This document shows positions 1,749 to 56,449 of a DNA stretch of 64,000 bases, in pieces. The notes under the pieces were generated by a model, which searched no databases, had not been told where the DNA came from, and saw nothing but the letters and a program-made list of their open reading frames with translations. The DNA is from Octopus vulgaris (taxonomy: Eukaryota). The stretch spans positions 18,104,001 through 18,168,000 of the forward strand of contig OX597840.1 in NCBI GenBank assembly GCA_951406725.2, given 5' to 3'. Numbering within the stretch: the first letter of the stretch is position 1; every line of letters begins with the position of its first letter. The position numbers and the translations under genes are program-made.

Positions 1749-2430
1749 GGTGCCACGTGAAAGCATCTGTGTTGGTGCCACATACAAGCACCCATGCTGG
1801 TGTCATGTAAAAGTGCCTCTGCTGGTGTCACGTAAAAGAACCCATGCCAGTGCCCCACAGAAGTACCCTTAGCGGTGGCACATAAAAGCAGCTGTGCCAG
1901 TGCTGGTGCCATGTAAAAGTAGTCATGCTGGTGCCACGTAAAAGTAACCATGCAGGTGTCACGTAAAAGTGCCTCTGCTGGTGTCACATAAAAACATGCC
2001 GTGCCATGTAGAATCACCTGTGCCAGTGTCACATAAAAGTACCCACGGTGGTGCCACTTAAAAGCGCCCATGCTGGTGCCACATAAAAGCACTCGTGCCA
2101 GTGTCAAGTAAAACTACCTGTGCTGGTGCCACATAAAAGCGCCCATGCTGGTGCCACATAAGAGCACTCATTCCAGTGCCATATAGAAGCACCCACACTG
2201 ATACCACATGAAAGTATCCATATTGGTGCCATGTAAGAGCACTTGTGCCAGTGCCACCCAACACATTCTGTAAAGTGGTTGGCATCAGGAAGGGCATCAA
2301 GCCATAGAAACCATACTAAAACAGACAAAATGGAGCCTGGGAAGCTCCCCAGTGTGCCACCTCTGGTTGAACCGTCCAACCCATGCCAGCATGGAAAACA
2401 GACATTAAATGATGATGATGATGATGATGG
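1749..2430 (+). repeat. Array of about 20 degenerate 23-25-bp units (tgctggtgccacataaaagcacc) ending in an RTE-type 3' tail
   Basis: Repeated gtg(c/t)cac(a/g)taaaag; followed by gtggttggcatcaggaagggcatc...ccatgccagcatggaaa and (GAT)n. Confidence 0.85.
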
Positions 2431-2942
2431 TAATGAATATTATCTACATAGCTAATTAATACCTAATTAATATCTAATCAAATAAAATAGTCCTAAAAAA
2501 ACAAAAAAACAGACATGATGGTCATAACTGGATTGCAAAAAGCATTGATCCGAGATCTATTCAGTGAGGATTGGACAAAGAACTAACCGACAACTACCAC
2601 ACTGCGGCATATTTGGATTGTGCTTATTGGTCAAATATTATCCATGGCTGAAATATAAGACAATAAACTACTAAATATAAATTTATTGATTATAAAAGTC
2701 CAGACTGACCCAATAAGTAATACTACGGTGCAGCTAGCATCCAGTTATAAATATCAATTTGGTCCAATAACACATGCAGTTGTTGTGAATTAGCACATCT
2801 ATCCTACCCACACATCATACATTCATGAATTATAGTGATTATAAAATACAAAACGAAAAATAATTACTGTTCCATATATCAGCCTAATTATCATTCTATT
2901 TATCTGTCTCTCTCTCTCTCTATCTATCTATCACTCTATCTT

Positions 2943-2982
<40 letters not shown>

Positions 2983-3513
2983 CCAGTACCGCCTGACTGG
3001 CCCCCGTGCCAGTAGCACATAAAAAGCACCCACTACACTCACGGAGTGGTTGGCATTAAGAAGGGCATCCAGCTGTAGAAACTCTGCCAAATCAAGATTG
3101 GAGCCTGGTGCAGCCATCTGGTTTGCCAGCCCTCAGTCAAAATCGTCCAACCCATGCTAGCATGGAAAGCAGACATTAAATGATGATGATGATGATGGTG
3201 ATATATATGTCTATCTATCTCTGTACCTCACACACACACAACTCCACAGCTGGCAAAAATGAGTAGTACCTGTATTTCAAAGGGCCAGTTTTGTCACACT
3301 CTGTGTCACGCAGAATTTCCCTGAGAACTATGTTACGGGTACACGTGCCTGTGGAGTTCTCAGCCACTTGCACATTAATTTCACAAGCAGGCTGTTCCGT
3401 TGATTGGATCATCTGGAATTATCATTGTCCTAACTGACAGAATGCCATGCCTGTCTGTCTGTCTATCTATCTATCTGTCCATGACGGACGGACGGACGGA
3501 CGTCCGTCCGTCC

Positions 3514-3546
<33 letters not shown>

Positions 3547-3558
3547 TCTACACTTTAT

Positions 3559-5033
3559 TTCAAGACGGGATGCCCCTGGGAGCTCCTCTATGCTGATGAC
3601 CTTGCTCTAATTGCTGAGTCACTAACAGAACTAGAGGAGAAGTTTCAAGTGTGGAAAGAAGGATTAGAATCGAAGGGCCTTAGAGTCAACCTAGCTAAAA
3701 CCAAAGTCCTAATATGTAGGAAGGCAGGCAAACCACAAATCCCTTCAGGTAGATGGCCCTGCTCAATCTGTAGAAAAGGTGTAGGTAGAAACTCTATAAG
3801 ATGTACCCAGTGTCAGCTATGGACACATAAGAGGTGCAGCAATATCAAAGGAAGGCTAACTGGGAGGATAGTTTTCGTATGTGGCAGATGCTCAGGAGCT
3901 ATATATAACACTGAAAATGTGCAGAGAACAACTTCCGCCACATTCCAGGGAAAAACTAGAAGTAGTTGATAGCTTCCGTTACCTAGGTGACCAAATCAGT
4001 AGCGGAGGAGGGTGCACTGAAAGAATAAGAATAGCCTGCGCAAAGTTCAGAGAGCTCCTACCTCTGCTGGTGACAAAGGGCCTCTCACTCAGAGTAAAAG
4101 GCAGACTGTATGATGCATGTGTACGAACAGCCATGCTACATGGCAGTGAAACATGGGCTGTGACTGCTGAGGATATGTGTAAGCTTGCAAGGAATGAAGC
4201 CAGTATGATCCAATGGATGTGTAATGTCAGTGTGCATACTTGACAGAGTGTTAGTGCCCTGAGAGAAAGGTTGGACCTAAGGAGCATCAGATGTGGTGTG
4301 CAAGAGAGATGACTGCGCTGGTATGGCCATGTGGCAAGAATGGATTTGGATAGCTGTGTGAAAAAGTGCCACACCCTAGCAGTTGAGGGAACCTGTGGAA
4401 GAGGTAAACCCAGGAAGACCTGGGATGAGGTGGTGAAGCATGACTTTCAAACATTGGGCCTCACCGAGGCAATGACTAGTGACCGGGACCTCTGGAAATA
4501 TGCTGTACTGCAGAAGACTCAGCAAGTGCAAGTGTGACCATAACCTTGTGGACTATACTAGGGGGTAACCAGTCCACTTATGCATGCCTTTTCTTTATTG
4601 GACACTAAACTCTGCTTGTGAAGACCAGTTGAGGCTAGTGAAATCAAACTCGGTGACTGGCATCCATTGCTACTGGAGCGCTAAGAGTACCATACGAGTG
4701 AGATTGTTGCCAGAGCAACAAACTGGCCTTCGTGCCGGTGGCACATGAAACATTCGAGCGAGGACATCGCCAGTGCTGCTGGACTGGCTCCTGTGCAGGT
4801 GGCACATAAAAAGCACCATTTGGACGTGGTCGTTGCCAGTACTACCAAATTGGCCCTCATGCCGGTGGCACGTAAAAGCACCCACTACACTCTTGGAGTG
4901 GTTGGCGTTAGGAAGGGCATCCAGCTGTAGAAACACTGCCAGATCAGATTGGAGTCTGGTTTGCCAGACCTCAGTCAAATCGTCCAACCCATGCTAGCAT
5001 GGAAAGCGGACGTTAAATAATGATGATGATGAT
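3559..5033 (+). mobile_element. 5'-truncated, more decayed copy of the same RTE LINE
   Basis: LLYADDLAL, FRYLG, LHGSETW and GRGKPRKTW in broken frames; same 3' end and (GAT)n tail. Confidence 0.95.
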
Positions 5034-9902: not shown

Positions 9903-10856
9903 AAAGACAAAACCTGCAAAGCATTTTTTCCAATGCTTCTACGATTCTGCCAGTGCAGCATCAAGAAATGTCACAGATCCAAGAACTATGAAACCTGTGT
10001 AAGAAGGAAGCAACAGAGAAACATACACAAAGAAACATACATGTGGCTGTGTGGTAAGGAGCTTTCTTCCCAACCACATGGCTCTGGGTTCAATCCCAGT
10101 GTGGCACCTTGGGCAAGTCTCTTTCTAGTATAGCCTCAGGATGACCTAAACCTTGTGAATGGATTTGGTTGATGGAAACTGAAAGAAGGCGGCGAGCTGA
10201 CAGAAAGGTTAGCACACTGGGCGAAATGCTTAGCAGTATTTCGTTTGCCGTTACATTCTGAGTTCAAATTCTGCCAAGGTCGACTTTGCCTTTCATCCTT
10301 TCGGGGTCGATAAATTAAGTACCATTTACGCACTGGGGTAGATGTAATCGACTTAATCCATTTGTCTGTCCTTGTTTGTCTCCTCTATGTTTAGCCCCTT
10401 GTGGGTAGTAAAGAAACAGGAAACTGAAAGAAGCCCATCGTGTATGTGTGTGCTTGTGTGTGTGTGTGTGTGTGTGTGCATATGCATGTATGTGTATAAA
10501 TACCAATTTTGAAAAATTAGGCTTCTCGATGCCCGGAAAGGAGAAAGCTAATTTGAAGACTACGGTTCCAAGCCATCACTGAAACTTTAAAAATTTGTTA
10601 AATTTTTCAGAAGTTCATCATTTAAGTCTCTATGTGCCATGTCGAGACATGCAGCCATATGCATGAGAATACATACAAGACATACCAATCTGCACATGCA
10701 CTGATTCCAAATACTGCACATATACACACCTACATGTAAAAGTACCGTTGTTGATGTTGAAATTCCAATGAAAGAACCATAGATCTAGGTTAGAAACCAG
10801 CTCTTTCTCTACTGGCAAGAAATCTTAAAATATAACTGAATAACGACATACATAGA

Positions 10857-11122
10857 CTGTTGTGTCTGGGGAGAGTCATTTTCTTTTTGTGCCTTATTAT
10901 TTAACACACTCACCGGTAAAATTTCCACTTTTTTCTTATTTTTATTTTCATAAAATTTTTGTTGCATCTTGCAACCTTTTCATTAGTCTTGACTATTGAA
11001 AAGGTCACAAGACGCAATGAAAATTTTAGGAAAATAAAAATAAGAAAAAAGTGGAAATTTTACCTGTGAGTGTGTTACATTATAAGGCACAAAAAGAAAA
11101 TGACTCTCCCCAGACACAACAG
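10857..11122. repeat. Near-loopless palindrome (arms about 130 bp)
   Basis: ctgttgtgtctggggagagtcattttc... pairs with ...gaaaatgactctccccagacacaacag; centre near 10990. Confidence 0.85.
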
Positions 11123-11469
11123 AATATGCTTCAACACACGAACTCATATAAAGAATCTTGCAAACCAAATCCAAAAATGAGACATACATAGAGACAAACA
11201 GATAGACTAACAGAAAACAGACACACAGACATATTCAGACAGATATTCAGACAGACAGACATTTGGTAATCAGGTGACAACCTGTTTTTGTTATCAGACC
11301 ATTCACTACAACTGCCCTGGTATTTTGGAAGTCTTCCCACGTGGTGTTTAGTTTTCTATAGAAATGCATAGAAATGTCTATTTTGCATTTATAATTGGTT
11401 GTGTTGCTGTTAGAATTAGTTATAATAGTGTTGATTGTAAATATAATAATGATGATAATAATAATAATA

Positions 11470-15708: not shown

Positions 15709-16242
15709 TATATGTACATACACACATATAAGTACCCAACACATACACACCTGCAGGACTGGAACTTGATTTTGAACAATGCTTGATTGTTTTCTTAAAC
15801 ATGAGCAAAAACGGATGTGACTTTTCAATCCTGTTAAGGACCTACACTATTTTGCACAGATGTGGTAACGATGGAAGCCTCTTGCAGCAGGCGTTCGGAG
15901 AGTTTACTGCCCGCACTAACAGACGGCTTTATTCCATCTTGGTATTTTTTATTGAGTGGTTTACTTTTTTCAGTTACATGAATCCAATGCATGCAACACA
16001 CAACAGAGGTGGTTAGAGACGTTGAAAATCAAATGATGCCTTTGTATGAAGCTTCTCAAAGAGAGAAATAGCTTGCTCGGGGCCAATCCCACTCTATATA
16101 AAAAAGAAGCATTACTCTACATCAGTGAATAGAGACAAAGTCAAAGCTCATTGGCTAATTGTGACCCCAGAGCCTGTTCTGGCACTGTCTTTCTATATAT
16201 CACTAGCAGAGAGATGCATCACTGCCATCTCCAATGCCAAAA

Positions 16243-16289
16243 CCACCAGATCACATAATTTTGACCTCCTTTGGTCTCATCAGTAATGG
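16243..16289 (-). ncRNA. Degenerate hammerhead motif; inverted partner at 17289-17335
   Basis: Reverse complement: ccatta-CTGATGA-gacc aaagga ggtc-AAAA-ttatgtg-ATC-tggtgg (G12 lost). The partner keeps GAAA but has a mutated CUGA box. Confidence 0.4.
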
Positions 16290-17016
16290 ACGCTTGACTG
16301 CTAGAGTTAGCAGTGACTTATCTCCCCACCAGTGATATATAGAAAGACAGCACCCGAACAGGTTTTGGCACTGGAGATGGTAATATAATAAGTGTGCATT
16401 TTGCATCAAAAGCCAATATGAGAGTTTCTCTCATGGCAACCACTGCAGTATAGTTTGTTCCGATAGAACATCCATGTTTCAAGTGGGGATAAGTATCACT
16501 TATCAGTATTAATACTGTCTCTGTTGCTAATATATATTCTTTACCAAGCTCACTGGCTAATCGTGACACCAGCACCTGTTTAGGCAATATTTTTCTATAT
16601 ATCAAGGCAGCAAGCTGGCAGAAACATTAGCACACCAGGCAAAATGCCTAGCAGTATTTCATCTGGCTTTACGTTCTGAGTTCAAATTCTGCCGAGGTCA
16701 ACCTTACCTTTCATTTTTTCGGGGTCAGTAAATTAAGTACTAGTTGCATACTGGGGTTGATCTAATCGACTGGTGCCCCCTCCCCCAAAATTTTGTACCT
16801 TGTGCCTAGAGTACTCTTTTACTCTTCCACTCTTTTACTTGTTTCAGTCATTTGACTGTGGCCATACTGGAGCACCACCATTAGTCGAGCAAATCGATCC
16901 CAGGACTTATTCTTTGTAAGCCCAGTACTTATTCTATTGGTCTCTTTTGCCGAACCGCTAAGTGACGGGGACGTAAACACACCTGCATCGGTTGTCAAGC
17001 AATGTTGGAGAGACAA

Positions 17017-20000: not shown

Positions 20001-20857
20001 AAAACAGGGAACATAATCAAGAATCCTTGTCCAGTACCAGATCAAACCCAAAATCTAATCAGTTTGTGCCAGTCACAAGGCCAAACAGCCTTGAAAGTCT
20101 CATCTGAATCCATCCAGCGAGGCCTAATGTTCGAAGGCCATGCTTCACCAGGTCTTCCTGGGTCTACCTCTTCCACGGGTTCCCTCAGCCTATGACCAAG
20201 AGTCCACTGCCCAAACCACTGCGCCATTGCACCTCCATAATATATATATATATATATATACCTCTGGATATCTTTGTTGCTCCTATCTTCAGCCTTACAT
20301 GATACTCACAGACCATGGTCTCTGGATGTTTACCCGTCCTCAGTGTGAGATAATCACTGGCTGTTGATGGAAGCTTTCTCCACTCACAAACACTATATAT
20401 TCTTTAAGTAACACACAATCGCTGATCTCATATAGAGAAAAACAACTTGTTTTAAATCTCTCACCAAGAGTTATACAGTAACAGTATCGAATAGTAAAGT
20501 TTATATGCCAACAGAATGTGGCAGTCCTATAAAGGACGATGCTACTGTTGTTTAAGCCCCAGGAAAACATCTTCTCCAGCTGACTATCAACACAGTCTGC
20601 TTTTGTACAGTGTTTGCAAATATTATATGGACACAGACTGTGTATTGACAGCCAGCTGGAAAAGATGTTTTCCTTCTCAAACTATCTGATGTGGCATACC
20701 AGCAGATTTTTTTCTTCCAATGTACCAGGGATCAGTAATATTTCTTAGTAATATTAATTTATACTGGAAATAATAATATACAATGAATATAATAAAAGCT
20801 GACAATTTTTTGTTATCTTATATTTATTTTGTAAACAAATAATATAATATTACATTA

Positions 20858-26034: not shown

Positions 26035-26104
26035 TGGTAAAAACGGTAAGATAACAAAAGAAAGAAAGAGACCTCAATATTATGTAAATAGAGGAAATTT
26101 ATCT

Positions 26105-26210
26105 GTAAATTAATATGTTACCATTATTCAATAGCCAAGATAACCAAAGAGATTTCCACTTCAGCACTCAGAGTTTATCTTGGCTATTGAATAATTGTCA
26201 CATATTAATT

Positions 26211-26214
<4 letters not shown>
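26105..26214. repeat. Short fold-back (arms about 40 bp) between (TA)n tracts
   Basis: tgtaaattaatatg...attattcaatagccaagataa pairs with ttatcttggctattgaataat...catattaatttaca. Confidence 0.75.
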
Positions 26215-26247
<33 letters not shown>

Positions 26248-33754: not shown

Positions 33755-33934
33755 TGTACACAGACACACACACACCTGTACGTTGCTTACTTCCAGGTCA
33801 GCTCGTCCTAAATCGATCTATCATGATCGAAGATATATTGTGCTTTTATATATATTATATTATATATACCGGAGTAAGCACATAAAATTGAAACAAGGTG
33901 GAAAAAAGAGTACTCAAATACCAGCGGTAGAGTA

Positions 33935-34095
33935 ATATGCTTTATTTAAAAGCGGCAGAAATTTAACAAAAGCTGTTACTCAGAATTTCACGTACCCGTT
34001 CATCGGACAGTCTTGTTTAACAAAACTACCCGACGAACGGGAACGTGAAACTCTGAGTAACAGCTTTTGTTATATTTCTGCTGCTTTTAAATAAA

Positions 34096-34101
<6 letters not shown>
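33935..34101. mobile_element. Fold-back element (arms about 80 bp) between TA tracts
   Basis: ctttatttaaaagcggcagaaat... pairs with ...atttctgctgcttttaaataaag. Confidence 0.8.
33973..34063. ncRNA. Pair of opposed minimal hammerhead-like motifs (33973-34010 minus, 34026-34063 plus), CCGANGA variant
   Basis: Minus: ctgt-CCGATGA-acg ggta cgt-GAAAT-tctga-GTA-acag. Plus: ctac-CCGACGA-acg ggaa cgt-GAAAC-tctga-GTA-acag. Each has a different lesion, but their consensus folds fully. Confidence 0.5.
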
Positions 34102-34142
<41 letters not shown>

Positions 34143-34305
34143 TCCTGGTTAGTTTGGTGACATAGTAATATTTAACTAATATTTTAGCGGGGTTTCCGCG
34201 CGGCATTTTTTTCCTTTCCCTAAAAGTTTGCTCGTCTCCAGTTTTGTACCTCTTGTCTGCCCCCATTAGGTCCTGATAGCTATTCCAAAACCCCGCCAAT
34301 CTTTT

Positions 34306-34337
<32 letters not shown>

Positions 34338-35141
34338 TACCAAGGAAACCTTGACGTGGCCGTCCTAAGAGATTGTGAAGAAGCACAGCAACACGTATAG
34401 CGTACCAAACTATAAACGAAGTTCATATACGGCTTCTGTGATAACAGACAATAGGTCCCGAGGTTCAAATTATAACGGGGTCATCTCGATTGATAATATT
34501 CTGCACTAAACAATATCAGTCAATAGTCAATCCTATTGTGAACAGAACACGCTGTCTCTATGAAGTCATTCGAGCAGCTAGAAATAACAACCAAATCGCC
34601 AGGCAAAAGAAACTTAGTTTCTGTGGAAAAGAAAAAGGTGAGATTAGATAATAATTTTGTATTTGATATTTTTAGAAGATGGGATGGTCACGGCTAGAAC
34701 GCCGATAAAAGCTGATCTGGGGCTACAATTGCAATATATTCTACAGTATTAAAAAAAATTGTATGAAAATAAAGGAAAGATTACCAAGTTGGGAGGATGA
34801 GTAATCGACTTGGATGATGCACCGAATTAAATATACACCCACACGTGAGCGTGTATATCATGGTGTATGTACGTGTATGCGTAAGAGTTTATGTATGTGT
34901 ACGTGACCGTTTTTATGTGTGTATGCATGGGTAGATGTGTGTATATCTGTATGTACGTGTGTATACATGATCTTACGTACATACCTGCATTAATGTGCTT
35001 TTATGTCTAAATACATGTATGTGTATGCATGTATGTATTTGAGGTGTATCTATGCATATGAGTGCGTATATATGTGTGTGTATGTACTAGATACTCAGAA
35101 AAGGCATCAACAGATAGGAATTTATCTATACAAACATATAT

Positions 35142-35180
<39 letters not shown>

Positions 35181-35257
35181 TGCATGTACGTAATATTATG
35201 TGTATGCGCGTGTCTCTCTTTCTCTCTATATATATATGTGTGTGTTTGTGTGTATAC

Positions 35258-35296
<39 letters not shown>

Positions 35297-35623
35297 TGTG
35301 TGTGTGTATGTATATATATATATATTGTATACACATACATAAACCCGGGTATAGCCATTGGTGCCACCCAATCGCTCGACTATATTTTCATGTATGTATG
35401 TATAAGCCCGTACGGTTGTGTGTATTTCTACAAATCGTCTCGCACCACCCTATCCGCCAGTAGTGACCGGATAGCTCGATCACGAACGACCAACTCTGCT
35501 CTCATAAAAATAGACTGCGTTGAACAGCAGCAAGAAAAGTATTTACACGGACACCAAACACACATACTACATACATAAACATATATATTCATGTGTGCAT
35601 ACATTCATACATACAAATCTCTG

Positions 35624-35681
<58 letters not shown>

Positions 35682-36165
35682 AGCAATTTGCAGTGTTTCA
35701 CCAAAAAGGAAAATTATATTTGGATATTTGTCACTAAATGTGGCTAGGTGTCAAGAAACACCTACATTGCTAGAAACAAGAGCTAAAAAGCTATATACAT
35801 ATACATACATACACACACACACACATACATACATACATACATACATACATACATACATACATACATACATACATACATACATACACACACACATACATAC
35901 ATAAATACATACATACATACATACGTGCACACATACATATACACGGATAGACGAGGAAGAAATAATATACACACACATTACGTATATATGCGTAATACAT
36001 AAACAGTAATGATAATATCAAAATCTTTCCTATTCAACAAAACACACAAATACATCAAATCACACTAAAATAACCCCTTAATTTAGCTCCTATACACTCC
36101 CTTCTCTTGTATACACCCAAAATATCTATATATATATCGCTGTATATAATAATAAATCTATCTAC

Positions 36166-36202
36166 CTTTAGTCGGCGGCGGTACTTGCTCCACGGCTGTC
36201 AT
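36166..36202 (-). CDS. Candidate first coding mini-exon of the wolframin-like gene (MTAVEQVPPPTK+G)
   Basis: Unique CpG-rich sequence. ATG at 36202, donor AAG|gtagat in phase 1, in frame with the phase-1 exon at 7539. No homology support. Confidence 0.25.
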
Positions 36203-36565
36203 AGTGCGGCATTTAAACAGCACAACCACTGTCTGTCGGCCTGGCTGTCTGTCCGTCAGTCACGCAACTCTGGTTAGACGAGTCGCTTCTCAGCGAATGT
36301 TTATTTTGACGGGGGTGGATACCTAAACAGGGGAGGTAACTCTAAACCTATTTGTGTGTGAGTGTGTGTGTGTACTCTTTTACTTGTTTCAGGCATTTGA
36401 CTGCGGCCATGCTGGAGCACCGCCCTTTTTAGTCGAGCCAATCGACTTCGGGACTTATTCTTTTGTAAGCCCAGTACTTATTCTATCGGTCTCTTTTGCC
36501 GAACCGCTAAGTAGTGGGGACATAAACACACCAGCATCGGTTGTCAGGCAATGGTAGGGGGACAA

Positions 36566-36599
<34 letters not shown>

Positions 36600-36770
36600 T
36601 CTTATTCGTTCCCATCGGGCTTCTTTTCAGTTTCCGTCTAGCAAATCCACTCACAAGGCTTTGGTTGGTTTGAGGCTATAGTAGAAGACATTTGCCCAAT
36701 ATGCCACGCAGTGGGACTGAACCCGGAACCATGTGGTTGGTAAGCAAGCTACTTCAGTTTGTATTTTTTT

Positions 36771-36811
<41 letters not shown>

Positions 36812-38371
36812 CGACGGGCTTCTTTCAGTTTCTATCTACGAAATCCACTCTCACAAGGCTTTGATCAGCCTGAGGCTATAGTAGAAGACACTTGCCCAAG
36901 GTGCCACGCAGTGGGACTGAACCCGGAACCATGTGGTTGGTAAGCAAGCTACTTACAACCACAGCCATCTAATTCTTTTATATGTTTCAGCCGAAAGTCT
37001 GTGGTCATGCTGGAGCACCACCAGTATAATAATATATTTTTCAAATTTTGACACAAGGCCAGCAATTTCGGGGGTGGGTGGAGGTAGGGGGTGGTGCTTA
37101 GTCGATTACATCGATCACTGTGTTCAACTGGTTATTTTATTGACCCTTGAAAGCATGAAAGGCAAATTCGACCTCGACCGGAATTTGAACTCCGGACGTA
37201 AAGATGGACGAAATGCCGCCAAGCACTCTTCCTCGGTGTGCGAACGATTCCGCCGCCGCCGCGCGGGCGTGGTTGTGTGCTGGAAAGCTTGGGAAAGTCC
37301 TTCGGAAATGGTCTAAGAAAAAAAGTGAAGCTATTTGTTCGGCAATTTCCGTATAAATTTTTTCTTTATTTCCTTAATGTTTATTTTTTGCAGCTGAAAA
37401 GGGAAAAACACGATCGCACTCATACGCATAGACACACACACATATACACACACTCACACACACACACACATTCATTGTCTTTCATTTGCACGAGCGACTT
37501 GAACAGTGGCACACGCCAACCCACACTCACACACACACAGATACATATACATACGTAAATATACATGCATATATACTTTCACGAATCGCTTGCATATGTA
37601 TGTCTGTCTGTATGTATGTATGTATGTAGCGTGGAGGCGCGTGGCTTAGTGGTTAAGGCGTTGAACTCATGATCGTAAGGTTGTGGCTTCGATTCCTGGA
37701 CTGGGCGACAAGTTGTGTTCTTGAGCAAAACACTTCATTTCACATTGCTCCAGTCCACTCAGCTGGCAAAAATTAGTAATGCTCCGACGGACCGGCGTCC
37801 CGTCCAGGTGGGGAATTTCTACGCCACTGAAACCGGGAAACCGGCCCTTATGAGCCTGGCATGACTTGAGAAGGAACATTTATTTATTTTTAATTATGTA
37901 TGTTTGTCTGTATGCATGTATGAATGGATGGATGGATGGATGGATGGACGGAGGGATGGATGGATGTGCGTATGTTATATGTATGCATGTATGTATGTAT
38001 GTATGTATGTATGCATGTATGTATGTATGTATGTATGTATGTATGTATGTATGTATGTATGTATGTGTGTATGTATGTATAGATGGATGGATGTCTGCAT
38101 GCTTGTATGGATGGATGGATGGAGAAAGAGAGAGAGAGGTCTGTGTGTAAGCTGGAAAAGAAACTAAAGAAATAAAAATGTTTTATGGAACTTGCCGAAC
38201 AAATGGTTTCACTTCTCTTAGACCATTTCCGAATGATTGCCAAAGTTTTGCTTTCAGCCACACAATTCTGGGTTCTGTCCCACTGCGTGACATTTTATGT
38301 GAGTTTCTTCTACTTTTTGAACCAAAGCTTTGTAAATGGATTTGACAGACGGAAGTGAAAGAAGCCCGTCA

Positions 38372-38409
<38 letters not shown>

Positions 38410-38710
38410 CACACGCACACACACACACACACACATATATATATTGCTTTCTTCCAAGGAATCTAATGCTCTTAGCTTAGTTTTTCCTTGGAGCTGGCCA
38501 GATTGGAGCAATCTCGAGTATAATCAGCCGAAATTGCAAAGATAATCTGGAACTCGACTGAGGAAAGAAAACTCCGAATGACCCGTCCTTGTTTTCTTTG
38601 TATTGTTTATCTGGATGTTTTGTTGTCTCATTTTTGTATCACTTAACTGTGCGGATGTTTTGCGTTCTTGTCCCATTTTGTCTCTCTATCAAAACTACAA
38701 CCATAATAAC

Positions 38711-38775
<65 letters not shown>

Positions 38776-38782
38776 TGTATGT

Positions 38783-39020
38783 ATAAAGTTAAGAAAGAGA
38801 GAAACAAATTCAAAAGGTCGACACTCATATTCACTCAAGCCATCCCAAATTGTCGAAACTCTCCACAACGTACACTTAGATGCGCTCTTATGAACTTTTA
38901 CCATGTCTGATATATGTGAGCGCATCTGTGTATGTTGTGGAGAGTTTCGACATTTTGGGATGGATTGAATGAATAAGAATGTCGACCTTTGGAATATGTT
39001 TCTCTCTTTCTTAAGTTTAT
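38783..39020. repeat. Fold-back element (arms about 105 bp) between microsatellites
   Basis: ataaagttaagaaagagagaaac...gatgcgctc pairs with gagcgcatc...gtttctctctttcttaagtttat. Confidence 0.8.
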
Positions 39021-39063
39021 ATTCCTGAAGCTCTATTAGAGCGCTAATTAGTTATACTTCTTC

Positions 39064-39117
<54 letters not shown>

Positions 39118-39664
39118 GAAAAATACACATTTGTGTACAGGACAACACCAACGAGTGAAAAATACGTAAACACACGAGAGATACGTTCAGGACAAAATAA
39201 CAAAAACACGCATTAAGTACAGGACATAACCCGGATATGACCATCACCTACGTCTCATCAGGTCACTCGCTTAGGCAGACATTTAAGTCGGGAGTCCCAG
39301 TTTTATACCAAATTAGTTCATTTAAGAGAAAGAAAGAAAAAAAGAAAGGAAGGAAGAAAGAAACCTAATAAAAGAAATATATACCCGTTCGTTGCTTATA
39401 ATAGAATTTGGTTCATAATAAGTTTATTGTTTCCAACGCTAACATCGTTTGACTGTATTCAGTTTGTAACATATTAACCTTGTGTTGTGTATTTTATTAT
39501 TTTAGTTTTGGAGTGAGCTGTGGCTGATTTAAAATTTAAATGACTGTCTGCGGTGTTCTGTGCTGCAAACAAAAGGTAGAAAATGGTTTAGGAGTAAGCG
39601 AGGCGAGAGAATTATGTGCACGTGTATATGCGTGTGCCAGTGTTCACACACACATACACACACT

Positions 39665-39728
<64 letters not shown>

Positions 39729-39909
39729 GTAGTGGTTGTGTGGTAAGAAACTTGCTTCTCAGCCTCATGGTTCCTGGTTCAGTCCCACAGCGTGTCATCT
39801 TGGGCAAGTGACTTCTATTATATCCTCGGGTCGACCAAAGCCTGGTGAGTGGACTTGGTAGGCGGAAACTGAAAGAAGCCTGTTGTACATACATACATAC
39901 ATACATAAA

Positions 39910-39960
<51 letters not shown>

Positions 39961-40268
39961 CTCTTTACTTGTTTCAGTCATTTGACTGCGGCCATGCTGG
40001 AGCACCGCCTTTAGTCGACAAATCGACCCCGGGACTTATTCTTTGTAAGCCCAATACTTATTCTATCGGTCTCTTTTGCCGAACCGGTAAGTGACGGGGA
40101 CGTAAACACACCAGCATCGGTTGTCAAGCAATGCTAGGGGGACAAACACAGACACACACTTGCCCAAGATGCCACGCAGTGGGACTGAACCCGTAACCAT
40201 GTGGTTGGTTAGCAAGCTACTTACCACACAGCCACTCCTGCGCCTAGATAGATAGATAGATAGGTAGG

Positions 40269-40336
<68 letters not shown>

Positions 40337-40519
40337 AAGATAGGTAGGTAGTGGCTGTGTGGTAAGAAACTTGCTTCTCAGCCTCATGGTTCCCGGTTCA
40401 GTCCCACAGCGTGTCATCTTGGGCAAGTGTCTTCTACTATATCCTCGGGTCGACCAAATCCTGGTGAGTGGACTTGGTAGGTGGAAACTGAAAGAAGCCT
40501 GTTGTATATACATACATAC

Positions 40520-40571
<52 letters not shown>

Positions 40572-40576
40572 CACAC

Positions 40577-41150
40577 AAGTATACAAGCGGTTCGGACGTT
40601 TCCAGGAGGGCCGAAAAAATGTCGATATCGACGAACGTTCTGGGAGACCTGCAACCAGTAGAACTGAGAAAAACATCGCAGATATGCATGTAGCTGTGAG
40701 AGGAAATCGTCGAATCACCATCTGTGAGTTATCAGAGGATGTGCAGATTATTTACGGTTCAGTCCATTATCACTGAAGATTTGGGTATGAGACGCGTGTC
40801 TGCCAAGTTTGTGCCAGAACTGTTTTCAGCTGACCGGAAAGACACTCGGGTTTTAGTTACACAAGATCCCTTTGACTATGTTGAGAACGTTGAAAACTTT
40901 TTGAAAACTTTGCGTAGGCTTCTGAGCAGATATCACCAAGCTTTTGGCAAAATTTGATGCAGAATCTCTGCTCAACTTTCTGTCATGGTCAATGCGATGA
41001 TCGCACGCTACATACCTTCCTTCCAAGCACTGCGGTAAACAGGGGGAGTGAGCTAGATCGTTAAAACTTAGTGCGCATGCATAGCGGTTTCATTCTGCGT
41101 GCTTTAGCTTCGTTACTATGGCAACAGCCCGGATACTTATTGATCAGACC
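40577..41150 (+). mobile_element. Mariner transposase N-terminal relic
   Basis: RFQEGRKNVDIDERSGRPATS...NRRITICELSED, then IITEDLGMRRVSAKFVP (WVPHEL-like motif). Confidence 0.8.
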
Positions 41151-41530
41151 TAGATTGTGTGTGTGTGTGTGTGACACCACTGCTTGATAGCCGGTGCCGG
41201 TGTATTTACGTACCGGTAACTTAGCGGTTCGGCAAAAGAAACCGATAGAATAAATACCAGGCTTGAAAATATTAAGTACTGGGGTTGATTCGTTCAACTA
41301 AAACTTCTCCAAAGCGGTGCCCCAGCATGGCCGCAGTCAAATGACTTAAACAAGTAGAAGATAAAAGACATATATAGAGATATATCATATACACACACAC
41401 ATACATATATGCAGAAAGAAAGAGAGAGAAAGAGGGGGTGAAAGGCAGATAAACACATGTAGTCTTAATGCATACACTTACTTGGAATACAAAATATAAA
41501 GTACGGGATAAAGAGTGCCAAATAGTCTTG

Positions 41531-41655
41531 TCTTGACAGCTGTTTCGAGTGAACCGTAACTACGTAACTACGTTCGTTATATAACAAAGACCCCGTAGCT
41601 GTATGAAATAAAATGAGTTTCTGTTAGGTGAGGCCAGGTCCTCCTCATCGGAAGA
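41531..41655 (-). ncRNA. Hammerhead-like motif, CCGAUGA core variant, long stem II
   Basis: Reverse complement: tctt-CCGATGA-ggaggacc...ggttcactc-GAAAC-agct-GTC-aaga; palindromic ACAGCTGT stem III. Confidence 0.5.
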
Positions 41656-42349
41656 ATGTGGCAAAAGACGTATTTGTTTGCAGTATTTACAAATACAGAG
41701 ATTTACAAGGGGTGTGGAAAGGGTTTAGGAAAAATAAGAATTTAATATTAGGGGGGAGAAAAGGAAGGAGAAGAAAGGTAGGGTGACGAAAGAGGAATTC
41801 ATACAATGAAGACTCAGTTGATGATAACCAAAGAAAAGAATAGATAAAACAGATTATAAGAAAAGGAAGTAACGAAGACAGCAGGGAAGTCTGTCAAAGT
41901 ACAGACAGTAATATGGAATGCAAAACGGTAGGTGGTAAATGTCAGTAGAATGGATAAGTAGATTCTAAAGAAAAACAGATGAGTCGAGATAAGACTATTA
42001 CAGAATTCCTTTGTTTATTTTTTAGTCTTTATTTCGTAATCTGTAGTTTGTAATCCATATAGATATACTTTTTAAGCCTAATTGTGTTTCTGCACTTTTC
42101 TGCTCCCATACTCGCTCGATGTGGATCGTTCTTCTGGCCGACTTTCTACACAGTAGACACCTGCCTTGGACGAAGGAGTTGGAATTTTAGTTTTCGTTAA
42201 GCCGAGCTTTACTCTGTTGATATCACCATGCTTGCGCTGGCTTCAGCGTTCTCCGACGTTATATATATTTTATATGTGAAGTGTAAACGGTCGTGGAGGA
42301 AGCGTCGCGAACCACCATAAACAAAGGTTATGCTTTTAATTTGATGGAA

Positions 42350-43020
42350 TTAGAAGGATGTTGTCTTTTACCAAGTTTCTCACAGACAAGACCATCAATT
42401 CGGGTGTGTGATGTTAGCAGCTGGACAAATTAATTGCAGCGATCCACCAGAACCATCCAACACCTCTTAATCGTAAAGGCATTGACTTTCAGAGCTGGCA
42501 GAAACGTTAGCACGCCGGGCGAAATGCGTAGCCGTATTTCGTCTGCCGTTACATTCTGAGTTCAAATTCCGCCGAGGTCGACTTTGCCTTTCATCCTTTC
42601 GGGGTCGATAAATTAAGTACCAGTTACGCACTGGGGTCGATATAATCGACTTAATCCGTTTGTCTGTCCTTGTTTGTCCCCTCTGTTTGCTCCTAGTGGG
42701 CAGTAAAGAAATAGGTATTGACTTTTATCACAACAATGCCAGACCGCACACTTCTTTGCAGACGTGTTAGAAGCTACTGGGGCTTGGTTGGGAACTTTTG
42801 TCGTATTCGCTCGACCTTGAACCTTCAGAATTCCACTTGTTTATGGACTCTTCAAAATTTGTTGGAACGACAGATCTTCAAATCTTAAGAGGACGTAAAA
42901 ATTCGTTAGGAAAAGTTTTTTGCCAGTAAAGATAGGAAATTCTTTGGGCAGGGAATAATGGATCTGTCCACAAGATGGCAGAAGATACTGGAACGAGACA
43001 GTTGAATAAATCGCTTTGTG
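42350..43020 (+). mobile_element. Mariner transposase catalytic-domain relic interrupted by a SINE
   Basis: Remnants QLDKL..AI, HNNARPHTS and YSLDLEPSEFHLF; SINE at about 42490-42712 flanked by the duplication agg(c/t)attgacttt. Confidence 0.75.
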
Positions 43021-43369
43021 TTTCAAACTTGTGTCATTTTCGCTTTTAAAAAAATGAACTTTTGGTCAATATATATGTATGGCTTGCTGGTTAGGCTATT
43101 GCACTCACGATCACTAGCTCGTCGGTTCGATTCCGTTACTGGGCAGCGCGTTGTGTTCTTGAGCAAAATATTTCATTTCACGTTGCTCCAGTCCCCGCTT
43201 ACGATCAGGGGGGATAATTTGACCCGCTGACCTAGCCAGTGGGGTGACGTCATTTGAAGGCTAAAGCAATGCAGAATCGCATTGGGACCAGCGATGTGTA
43301 ACATCTGATAGCCTGGTTGGTCACGTGATATATATGTAATCAAAATAAGCAACAGGATATCAAAAAGTG

Positions 43370-43457
43370 ATGCAGTACGACCGTTTCAAGCGATTCCATT
43401 TAATTGAACAGTGCAATCATTACAGCAATTTAAAAGCAGGGCTATCCTCAGCTGCAT
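43370..43457 (-). ncRNA. Type I hammerhead-like motif with long stem II (left arm)
   Basis: Reverse complement: atgcag-CTGAGGA-tagc...gctt-GAAAC-ggtc-GTA-ctgcat. Perfect stem I, self-complementary ACGGUCGU, U-U at the stem II base. Confidence 0.65.
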
Positions 43458-43677
43458 AAATAAATAGAATTTTAATCGGTTGGACACATTAATATAATTT
43501 TTCTCAAAAACTTTAACAGACCAAGAAAATGGAAGAAATCCATGTTGTCGCTATTATAGCTAAGTCTGTTTTTAGTTACAATAGCGAAAATATCGATTTC
43601 TTCCATCCTTTTGCTCTGTTAAAGTATTTGAGAAAAATTATATTAATGTGTCATACCGATTAAAATTCTATTTATTT

Positions 43678-43765
43678 GTGCAGCTGATGATAGCACTGCA
43701 TTTAAATTGATATAATGATTGTATTGTTCAGTTAAATGGAGTCGCTTGAAACAGTCGTACTGAAT
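43678..43765 (+). ncRNA. Type I hammerhead-like motif with long stem II (right arm)
   Basis: gtgcag-CTGATGA-tagc...gctt-GAAAC-agtc-GTA-ctgaat. Confidence 0.55.
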
Positions 43766-43794
43766 CACTTCTTGATATCCTGTTCCTTATTTTG

Positions 43795-43847
<53 letters not shown>

Positions 43848-43926
43848 AATATAGGAAAAAATTTTTCGAAAAAATTATATCAATGGCCAGCATATTAAAA
43901 AATACCTTTAAAGGTTAAATTTATAG

Positions 43927-44529
43927 ATAACTTATAAAACAAGGGCAAAAGAAAAAATTCTAATGCCAAATATGCCGAAAATAGACAAATTGTCAATAAC
44001 CATTATAATTTATCACTATTAACTTGCGTCTCGAAACAAGCCGACAGAAATTTTTGAAAAATTCCGTTAATACCGTATTGGTCCCAATTTTAGAGTTAAT
44101 TCATAAGAATTTTCTCCTCCTCAGCGATAAATACGTAAGACATAAATGAAATACTTACTCATACCCACGGAAAAAGCAAGCACTAAGTCCTGAGCAGACC
44201 TAAGTACCCCAAATATATCCAAAATAGAAAATCATCAGCACATCTATTTTGGATATATTTCGGGTCCTTAGGTCTGCTCAGACTTAGTGCTTGCTTTTTC
44301 CGTGGGTATGAGTAAGTATTTCATTTATGTCTTACGTATTTATCGCTGAGGAGGAGAAAATTCTTATGAATTAACTCTGAAATTGGGACCAATATAGTAA
44401 TAACGGAATTTTTAGAAATTTCTATCGGCTTGTTTCGAGACGCATGTTAATAGTGATAAATTATAATGGTTATTGACAATTTGTCTATTTTCGGCATTAG
44501 AATTTTTTCTTTTGCCTTTGTTTTATAAG

Positions 44530-44533
<4 letters not shown>
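43927..44533. mobile_element. Fold-back element (arms about 300 bp) between two (TA)n tracts
   Basis: ataacttataaaacaagggcaaaag... pairs with ...cttttgcctttgttttataagttat; short loop near 44229-44242; about 80 bp unpaired extension from 43846. Confidence 0.85.
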
Positions 44534-44616
<83 letters not shown>

Positions 44617-45494
44617 GCGAGTCGCTAAATATTTAGGTCGCTGATAAAAACGTGAACACTTTAATAATTGGACTGAATCATTAATCAAGTAACCATGAAA
44701 TACTTCTGTGCGAATAACTTCACGTTCAAGGTTTTATTCAGACACGTGAGTATCTACTGTTCAATAAAGATTTTTGGGAAGAAGAAAGGGTTTGAACAAC
44801 TTGTCATGTTCCATGATAACTTTAAGTAAATAGAAGTAAATGAAGCTACGAGATCTACTTTTCACGGGCACTAGACGTAGAATACCATGGCGAGCTACTG
44901 GTAGGAAATTATACATCGAATTCATGTGCCAGGCTCTCTCGTATTCGCGGTGGACCTTGTCACGTCTCGTAGAAGCAGTTAGAGAAGAGAGGTTGTTCGA
45001 ATGGGTGTTCACGCTTAAATAGGCGATGTGCCACTAGTGACCTCCTGCGTGTTGTTTAGGAGTTATGCCTCTGGTAAATTAGCGAAGGGGTAGTTAACCA
45101 TGTTCACCTTGAATCTTCTGGAATATTCTAGATTGTTCGATAGAGGAGAGACAACCGTCGTTGACTCCCAATGAATATTTTGTTAGCTTACGAATCTGTT
45201 TCGGTTAACGTTCTCCACACACACGCGACGATGTACTGGAAAGTTCCTGACTTGGCGTAAAAGAAAATACAGGAAGAAGAATTAATAATAAATCTCTGAA
45301 CGAGGTATAAACAGTAACTATACGAAAATGTGAGGTATATTTGCCATCTCAATATGGCTATCCACTAAGAGTGGGTGTTACTGTAGCTTGTATCCCCAGG
45401 AGAACATCGTCTCTAGCTGGCTATAGGTACACTTTCTGTGCTCTTATGGTATTTGCAAAGGGAGGTCATCCCTCCCTCGTCAACCTAAGTGATA

Positions 45495-45539
45495 CGCACG
45501 GACTGCAGTTTCTGGGTATTGACCCGTCATCAGCGTACG
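45495..45539 (-). ncRNA. Minimal type I hammerhead ribozyme, left arm of fold-back element
   Basis: Reverse complement: cgtacg-CTGATGA-cgggt caat accca-GAAAC-tgca-GTC-cgtgcg. 6-bp stem I with one GU, stem II gggt/accc with a C-A mismatch at its base, palindromic stem III, GUC site. Confidence 0.8.
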
Positions 45540-45576
45540 ACAATTGGGACTCCTTTCATCGAAAACCGGTGATTGT

Positions 45577-45621
45577 CGTACTCTGATGACGGGTCAATAC
45601 CTAGAAACTGCAGTCCGTGCA
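45577..45621 (+). ncRNA. Minimal type I hammerhead ribozyme, right arm of fold-back element
   Basis: cgtact-CTGATGA-cgggt caat accta-GAAAC-tgca-GTC-cgtgca; palindromic stem III ACTGCAGT; some mismatches in stems I and II. Confidence 0.7.
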
Positions 45622-46055
45622 TATCACTTAGGTTGGACGAGGGACGGATGACATCCCTTTGCAAATACTGATAGGGCACAGAAAGTGTGCCTATAGCCAG
45701 CTGGAGGAGATGTTCTCTTGGGGCTAAAAAGCTACAGTAACACCCACCCTTAGTGGTTAGCCATATTGAGATGGCAGATATACCTCACATTGAAGAAGAA
45801 TTAGTTATCATTTTATTCGACATATTCCCCTCTCAGATTCACACATTCATTGGAGCGGTTCTTCAGTTTTTCTAAGCCCTGTAAAACAACTGGGAAGGTT
45901 GAGCCTCCAACCAGGCCTTTTGTGACACCCTTTTCAGTACTCCTTCGTATACATACACACATGCATGTATGTCTTTAAATACACATATATTTGTAATACT
46001 GTACAAATACCCACTTTATACCTAATATCTCGCTTATGAAAACTAACTGAACCAG

Positions 46056-56363: not shown

Positions 56364-56449
56364 ACTTTCCTGAGGAGAAGATTGCATTGTTTATACCATT
56401 TATTCTTTTGAATAGTATCAGTGGAATTTTCGAAACATGTGTCGAAAGT
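56364..56449 (+). ncRNA. Type I hammerhead ribozyme with extended stem II
   Basis: actttc-CTGAGGA-gaagatt...aattttc-GAAAC-atgt-GTC-gaaagt. Perfect 6-bp stem I, 7-bp stem II base, self-complementary ACAUGUGU stem III, full catalytic core. Confidence 0.8.

What the first reader, a model, noticed from the sequence alone, without database searches (positions are those of the whole stretch)
33868..45803. Multiple unrelated fold-back elements carrying an opposed pair of hammerhead ribozymes
Seen: four hairpins with unrelated sequences (33935-34101, 43333-43802, 43927-44533, 45328-45791) share one architecture. Each has long inverted arms, a tiny loop, usually a short unpaired extension on one side and (TA)n flanks, and a hammerhead(-like) motif in each arm reading from the loop outwards. 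Both strands therefore encode one sense ribozyme. Known: Penelope-like elements carry minimal type I hammerheads with palindromic stem III that work as dimers, and they often leave inverted pseudo-LTR arrangements. Inference: these are non-coding, possibly still mobilisable elements. A transcript in either direction would form a viroid/retrozyme-like rod in which the antisense arm masks the ribozyme, and would also be a long dsRNA substrate for ADAR or Dicer. Such a multi-family class may be undescribed in this lineage.
Basis: partly seen in the sequence, partly recalled or inferred. Interest (0 to 1): 0.85.

Follow-up and report, generated by a model that had tools for sequence, protein, structure and literature searches.

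The report
Inverted Penelope retroelement insertions with hammerheads
The four hairpins are real but are back-to-back copies of the ribozyme-bearing ends of Penelope-like retroelements and of short repeats likely moved by them, each likely folded back anew during its own insertion, which is a known habit of these elements and not a new class of replicating hairpin.

Summary
Observation confirmed: four fold-backs, arms 89-93% alike, each arm with a type I hammerhead reading outward; only 2 of 8 motifs are intact. Interpretation mostly not supported. H1 and H2 are the 3' ends (pLTRs) of two coding Hydra-clade Penelope-like elements; a sister subfamily of H1 has intact 726-727 aa ORFs. H3 and H4 belong to 479-482 nt and 354 nt non-coding tandem units (retrozyme-like). 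In position-ordered samples 37 of 59 insertions have an inverted partner, but only 10 of 59 reach the hammerhead in both arms. Junctions differ between copies and left and right arms form no separate lineages, so the hairpin is not the replicating unit. Coding elements show the same inversion. Opposed hammerheads, inverted pLTRs, the one-sided tail, (TA)n targets and an octopus Hydra family are all in print. What I did not find in print: inverted inserts almost always pair one long (tailed) end with one short end (30 of 32 classifiable). This suggests both known RT start sites are used together, one per target strand. Transcription and cleavage were not shown.

The parts
33869..33934 (-). H1 one-sided tail (between the two 3' ends of the Hydra-clade pLTR)
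   Evidence: the same tail runs into the ORF start in L376/L381
33935..34016 (-). H1 long (tailed) arm
33977..34006 (-). H1 left hammerhead, CCGAUGA (U4C) core, stem III wobble
   Evidence: sequence
34020..34101 (+). H1 short arm, ends in (TA)n; junction at the palindrome TTAA 34017-34020
34030..34059 (+). H1 right hammerhead, CCGACGA core, stem I damaged
   Evidence: sequence
43337..43563 (-). H2 left arm (short end); pLTR end of a second Hydra-type coding element
43376..43451 (-). H2 left hammerhead, intact, 57-nt stem II region
43572..43798 (+). H2 right arm (short end)
43684..43759 (+). H2 right hammerhead, stems I and III damaged
43799..43845 (.). (TA)n tract shared as target by H2 and H3
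43846..43926 (-).
43927..44245 (-). H3 long arm with unpaired 5' extension at about 44229-44242; part of a 479-482 nt tandem unit
44076..44124 (-). H3 left hammerhead, GAAA>AAAA (G12 lost)
44243..44533 (+). H3 short arm, ends in (TA)n
44346..44394 (+). H3 right hammerhead, stem I damaged
   Evidence: sequence
45273..45284 (+). H4 left target-site duplication GAAGAAGAATTA
45284..45326 (-). H4 one-sided tail (unit positions about 312-354)
45327..45543 (-). H4 long arm (unit 94-311) of a 354-nt tandem unit
45501..45533 (-). H4 left hammerhead, intact, palindromic stem III ACTGCAGT
45543..45791 (+). H4 short arm (unit 65-312), carrying a 5' extension at 45544-45571 that the long arm lacks
45583..45615 (+). 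H4 right hammerhead, first stem I pair broken
45792..45803 (+). H4 right target-site duplication

Best explanation
Each hairpin is a head-to-head pair of 5'-truncated copies of a Penelope-type 3' end, likely made in one insertion when the PLE protein nicked both target strands and primed one cDNA from each. Shown here: H1 and H2 arms are the pLTR ends of coding Hydra-type elements; H3 and H4 arms are parts of non-coding tandem units; every family has two fixed 3' ends separated by a tail; inverted inserts nearly always have one end of each kind; the two arms share subfamily alleles; junctions vary. Known from in vitro work on another PLE (PMC11167929): both strands are nicked and extended, RT starts at two internal RNA sites, and the tail lies between them. 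Inferred: the two cDNAs stop at variable points and are joined at their 3' ends, often at a short palindrome (TTAA in H1). When both run past the hammerhead, an opposed ribozyme pair results. The hammerhead works, if at all, in the source transcript (dimeric or protein-assisted cleavage of tandem RNA); in the hairpin it is a decaying passenger.
For: Parent elements: H1 arm lies 0.95-1.26 kb behind the endonuclease end in 19 of 30 loci, and pLTR-ORF-pLTR copies with 726-727 aa open frames exist. H2 arm is joined by a chain of homology over 3 kb to broken RT and EN frames. H4 unit 354 nt and H3 unit 479-482 nt run end-to-start with no ORF. Position-ordered samples: H1 18 of 29 inverted, 7 with core in both arms; H4 19 of 30 inverted, 3 with whole core in the inverted arm. 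Long+short ends 30 of 32 classifiable, p 1e-7; 30 of 37 with unclear cases counted as misses, p 1e-4. H1 junctions: 28 distinct of 30 parsed, 19-60 nt. No long-arm or short-arm lineage, p 0.85. Arms 4.0% apart within loci against 7.5% between (17 pairs); H1 site +24 concordant in 32 of 35. Coding PLEs show the same long+short inversion: L200, L211/L214, L213/L216, L382. TSDs of 11-15 bp.
Against: No autonomous partner was tied to H3 or H4. H1 fold points cluster within about 25 nt of the hammerhead, and part of their variety may be later homopolymer slippage; three loci share one junction string. This copy of H2 has two short ends. At H1 site +43, 6 of 9 loci carrying the A allele have it in one arm only, and L062 joins pieces of different subfamilies, so a single RNA template does not explain every event. 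In vitro, start-site choice did not differ between strands (PMC11167929). Gene conversion between arms could also produce shared alleles. The H1 end classes were read by eye; a regex version gave 15 mixed, 3 long+long, 1 short+short with three visible miscalls.
Confidence: 0.88

Rival explanations
1. The second arm is made by snap-back: one cDNA folds on itself (or an antisense RNA self-primes, as proposed for rotifer Penelope) and is copied back toward the target.
For: Explains shared alleles and palindromic junctions; self-priming was proposed in PMC3846280; fits loci where the short arm is a subset of the long arm (H3 here; L138, L153, L161).
Against: In window H4, and in L147, L156, L158, L160 and L230, L241, L243, each arm holds sequence the other lacks, which one self-copied cDNA cannot give without a further deletion. 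One-arm alleles at H1 site +43.
Confidence: 0.07
2. The whole hairpin is a replicating non-autonomous element (viroid-like rod with one ribozyme per strand).
For: The 40 best H1 hits all span tail, both arms and loop; a stable rod is predicted; five H1 loci share a long-A/short-T pattern at site +43.
Against: That list is ranked by likeness to the hairpin; in position-ordered samples 10 of 59 insertions have two cores. Junctions vary, there are no arm lineages, the five loci share no other variant or junction, 6 of 8 motifs here are damaged, there is no reciprocal A>G/T>C signal, and coding elements invert in the same way.
Confidence: 0.04
3. The inversions are assembly artefacts or MITE-like DNA transposons.
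For: AT-rich palindromes on TA targets resemble MITEs.
Against: Arms differ at 7-12% of sites; ends are asymmetric; TSDs are 11-15 bp; arms continue into RT-EN frames or tandem units.
Confidence: 0.01

Closest known systems
Inverted pLTR insertions of EN+ Penelope-like elements (PMC3846280, PMC8557442)
   Same: Head-to-head 5'-truncated inverted copy, tail on one end only, palindrome at the junction, (TA)n targets, TSDs.
   Different: Tails here are 43-90 nt rather than 30-40; the copies in the window are truncated to the pLTR alone.
Opposed minimal hammerheads of truncated PLEs in Schistosoma (PMC4209133, section 5)
   Same: Two hammerheads close together on opposite strands, ascribed to truncated PLEs; palindromic stem III, dimer model.
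   Different: Different lineage and families; H2 has a 57-nt stem II region; H1 and part of H4 carry U4C.
Hydra-clade PLEs, including Hydra-1_Obim of Octopus bimaculoides (PMC8557442 text and File S1)
   Same: C-terminal EN, RWK, DKT, CxCx5C linker, CxxC..E and N..CxH, hammerhead, (TA)n target.
   Different: The H1 parent repeats at 3.4 kb with clear pLTRs and intact ORFs; Hydra-1_Obim is listed as 2507 bp with no pLTR. Sequence identity to it was not tested.
Metazoan non-LTR retrozymes (PMC7229834; bioRxiv 10.64898/2026.07.22.740005)
   Same: H3 and H4: short non-coding head-to-tail units with a type I hammerhead, low GC, long TSDs.
   Different: Here mostly 1-2 dispersed units, often inverted with PLE-type paired ends; the H3 unit is slightly above the 150-450 bp range; circular RNA not shown.
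Poseidon of Anolis in vitro (PMC11167929)
   Same: Two internal RT start sites bounding the tail; both target strands primed; uncleaved RNA as template.
   Different: No strand preference of start site in vitro, whereas here the two ends of an inverted insert are almost always of opposite kind.

Membership tests
EN+ Penelope-like element (H1, H2 parents) | Single ORF with RT and C-terminal endonuclease | tested here: met
   H1: 726-727 aa open frames with RT motifs (FDIIDFYPSI, GLYRDDG) and C-terminal EN. H2: broken frames 25-36% identical to it. Pfam gave no hit on the fragments, so the call rests on motifs.
EN+ Penelope-like element (H1, H2 parents) | pLTRs carrying a hammerhead | tested here: met
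   H1 arm on both sides of the ORF in L381 and L380; canonical CTGATGA core in the young subfamily. For H2 only the 3' copy was seen.
EN+ Penelope-like element (H1, H2 parents) | Optional tail, inverted truncated copies, AT-rich targets | tested here: met
Hydra clade | RWK, DKT, CxCx5C linker, CxxC and CxH around E and N | tested here: met
   RLRWKAF, NSDKTRN, CNCKNESSC (L382; F for the second C in L376/377), CKLCLLEK, LNQRSELMNLCRH against the description. H2: degenerate linker and EN only.
Hydra clade | Placement in an RT phylogeny with reference Hydra proteins | not tested
   Reference sequences were not fetched.
Non-LTR retrozyme (H3, H4) | Short head-to-tail non-coding unit (150-450 bp) with type I hammerhead | tested here: met
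   H4 354 nt; H3 479-482 nt, slightly long; paired changes in hammerhead stems between subfamilies.
Non-LTR retrozyme (H3, H4) | Long TSDs, no LTR | tested here: met
   11-15 bp TSDs for H4; H3 ends lie in (TA)n, so no TSD can be read.
Non-LTR retrozyme (H3, H4) | Expression as linear and circular monomer RNA; self-cleavage | not testable with these tools
   Only contigs of runs guessed to be RNA were available.
Proposed self-propagating double-hammerhead hairpin class | Whole hairpins recur with identical junctions and arm-specific lineages | tested here: not met

The most novel reading that the evidence does not exclude
A PLE dimer fires both of its RT start sites in one event, one on each nicked target strand and usually on the same RNA, so inverted inserts obey a one-long-one-short rule across coding elements and retrozymes alike. 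That would supply the missing second-strand step of PLE integration, show directly that retrozymes ride PLE machinery, and make these elements a large source of long hairpins in a lineage known for heavy RNA editing.
Probability: 0.4. Interest if true: 0.55.

Novelty: new member of a known kind. Interest (0 to 1): 0.3.

Why it matters
The hairpin class itself dissolves into known PLE biology. The useful residue is mechanistic. How PLEs finish integration and why they leave inverted ends is still open, and this genome holds thousands of events (search candidates 2426-4755 per family, lower bounds not copy numbers) plus intact Hydra-type ORFs with which the coupling of the two start sites can be counted and rebuilt in vitro. 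The retrozyme units carry the same paired-end signature as coding PLEs, which is insertion-level support for their proposed PLE dependence.

Tried and rejected
Rfam scan: no hammerhead among the listed matches, only miRNA-like hits to repeats. Single-arm MFE folds mostly do not give the three-way junction, as expected for weak stem III; uninformative. The 781-aa RT+GIY-YIG family (L196/197), L200 and the L207 family were tested as partners: they have their own ends and share no arm with H1-H4; an H3 hairpin beside L197 and an H1 beside L207 are neighbours. I first read the H2 parent as Naiad, then Neptune; motif order and the published description point to Hydra. One search's permutation p of 0 for arm lineages came from one target-derived base at the short end; without it p is 0.85. 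One search queried the wrong flank and was discarded. RNA: no RNA holder listed. Contigs of runs only guessed to be RNA cover the repeat families but almost none of the unique stretch 44590-45191, and cover the Hydra ORF, one contig bridging tail and ORF; neither shows transcription, strand or cleavage. No ADAR-type bias in genomic copies. Earlier scan findings: none. No relatives' genomes were available.
Full report
Setting. The window is G000:C27:18104001-18168000 of a 2.8 Gb assembly in 227 contigs. Size, about 30 chromosome-scale contigs and the (TA)n-rich repeats suggest an octopus; that is my recollection, not a test.

Observation. Self-BLAST finds the four fold-backs among 16 listed in the window. 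Arms are 89-93% alike and the four families do not match each other. Each arm carries a type I hammerhead reading away from the loop; descriptor hits far exceed shuffles (3 against 0.03 strict, 5 against 0 relaxed). Only H2-left and H4-left are intact. Across copies the stems change in pairs between subfamilies (H3 stem III ATTGG/CCAAT to ATCGG/CCGAT, stem II GGAG/CTCT to GGGG/CCCC; H4 stem II CAGG/CCTA, CGGG/CCCA, GAGG/CCTC), and H4 stem III is the palindrome ACTGCAGT in 57 of 63 parsed motifs. So the fold was kept in the source elements. U4C occurs in H1 and part of H4; one passage of PMC3088659 says U4C lowers activity in vitro but suffices in a viroid.

What the arms belong to. H4 is part of a 354-nt unit that runs end-to-start with no ORF; 324 exact copies of a 26-mer from it exist, control 0. 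H3 is part of a 479-482 nt tandem unit. H1 has 367 exact copies of a 35-mer, control 0. Walking upstream from H1 reached broken RT and EN frames in 5 of 5 extended loci. A search with that EN found the H1 arm 0.95-1.26 kb downstream in 19 of 30 loci and a sister subfamily (about 82% identical in the EN piece) with open 726-727 aa frames in pLTR-ORF-pLTR, tandem and inverted form. The protein has RWK, DKT, a CxCx5C linker and CxxC..E / N..CxH, the Hydra-clade marks of PMC8557442. H2 continues over 3 kb upstream; 2 of 6 extended loci reach RT-EN frames, 25-36% identical to the H1 protein in L280.

Is the hairpin the unit? Ranked searches return whole hairpins (H1 40 of 40 scored) because they are ranked by likeness. 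I therefore took the first 30 pattern hits by position. H1 (30 of 367; 29 places): 11 without and 18 with an inverted partner, 7 with a core in both arms. H4 (30 of 324): 19 inverted, 3 with a whole core in the inverted arm. H4 junctions differ at every ranked locus. Of 36 H1 hairpins, 30 junctions parsed, 28 distinct, 19-60 nt, clustered on a TTAA palindrome. Long arms do not group with long arms (p 0.85). One-arm substitutions show no reciprocal A>G/T>C pattern. Other fold-backs in the window stop before any hammerhead. The opposed pair is thus one outcome of variable truncation.

How the inversion arises. Every family has two fixed 3' ends separated by a tail (about 66, 90, 81 and 43 nt for H1-H4). 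Among inverted inserts, H1 gave 15 long+short, 1 long+long, 1 short+short, 1 complex; H4 gave 15 long+short and 4 unclassifiable. Pooled: 30 of 32, p 1e-7 against a 50% null; 30 of 37 counting unclear cases as misses, p 1e-4. H1 classes were read by eye; a regex run agreed on 15 mixed but miscalled three loci. Four coding inverted inserts seen also have one end of each kind. The window's H2 is an exception with two short ends. Arms share ancestry: H4 non-CpG variants shared by both arms 226 against 66 expected (19 loci); 4.0% within against 7.5% between; H1 site +24 concordant 32 of 35. In window H4 and seven other loci each arm holds sequence the other lacks, which argues against plain snap-back. 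PMC11167929 showed in vitro that a PLE protein nicks and extends both strands, starts at two internal sites bounding the tail, uses uncleaved RNA, and has a protein-assisted, dispensable hammerhead. The simplest reading is two cDNAs, one per strand and start site, joined head to head. Whether one RNA serves both is unsettled: direct tandem pieces are about as alike (5.2%) as inverted arms, 6 of 9 loci with the +43 A allele have it on one arm, and L062 is a subfamily chimera.

Function of the window's copies. Arms of window H4 are no closer to each other than to other copies, 6 of 8 motifs are damaged, and nothing shows selection on the hairpin. If transcribed, H4 would form a rod (-389 kcal/mol) that would mask its ribozyme. 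Transcription was not shown.

Literature seen. PMC4209133: passages and section 5, which reports dual minimal hammerheads 100-700 bp apart on opposite strands, probably from truncated PLEs. PMC8557442: passages and supplement rows, which list Hydra-1_Obim on (TA)n. PMC3846280: passages. PMC11167929: parts 1-3 of 4; its supplementary figures were not read and may bear on end pairing. PMC7229834: passages. PMC3088659: one passage. Searches showed no paper on a long+short pairing rule or on octopus retrozymes; subscription papers, including Arkhipova 2006, were not searchable. The likeness to L1 twin priming is recalled.

Verdict. Real feature, known kind, new family members. Interest 0.3, carried by the end-pairing rule and by intact Hydra-type elements and two retrozyme-like families in this genome.

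Noticed in passing
window 10851-11128: 278-nt fold-back with no hammerhead found; it recurs almost whole in L052/L159 (one place) and L263 and as a single arm in L072. Could be another truncated PLE end or a MITE.
   Followed up: partly
window 38712-39109 and 26097-26221: Fold-backs on (TA)n without a hammerhead; 38712-39109 has a one-sided tail of about 45 nt, the same architecture truncated before the ribozyme.
   Followed up: partly
window 20300-20674: Old (about 72%) relative of the H4 unit, also folded back at 20561-20674.
   Followed up: partly
window 16167-16368 and 56370-56443: Two more hammerhead-like motifs: one in a single arm of a fold-back (GAAA>AAAA), one solo with a 55-nt stem II region.
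   Followed up: no
L196/L197 (G000:C16): Young RT+GIY-YIG PLE family with many 781-aa open frames, an upstream second ORF, 456-bp pLTRs 99% identical and a degenerate hammerhead core.
   Followed up: partly
L200:1821-4983: Coding PLE insert with 766-bp inverted arms that are 100% identical, U4C hammerhead in both, one long and one short end: a very recent event.
   Followed up: partly
L209-L227: Another young PLE family whose 3' motif reads CTGATGC instead of CTGATGA, with two ends about 65 nt apart.
   Followed up: no
H2 family hammerhead, window 43376-43451: Conserved 57-nt stem II hairpin; descriptors with short spacers would miss such motifs.
   Followed up: partly
L142 junction: About 27 nt of flanking target sequence copied into the junction between the arms.
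   Followed up: no
window 45192-45272 and 45804-45850: High-copy repeat interrupted by H4; uninterrupted copies appear as joints.
   Followed up: partly
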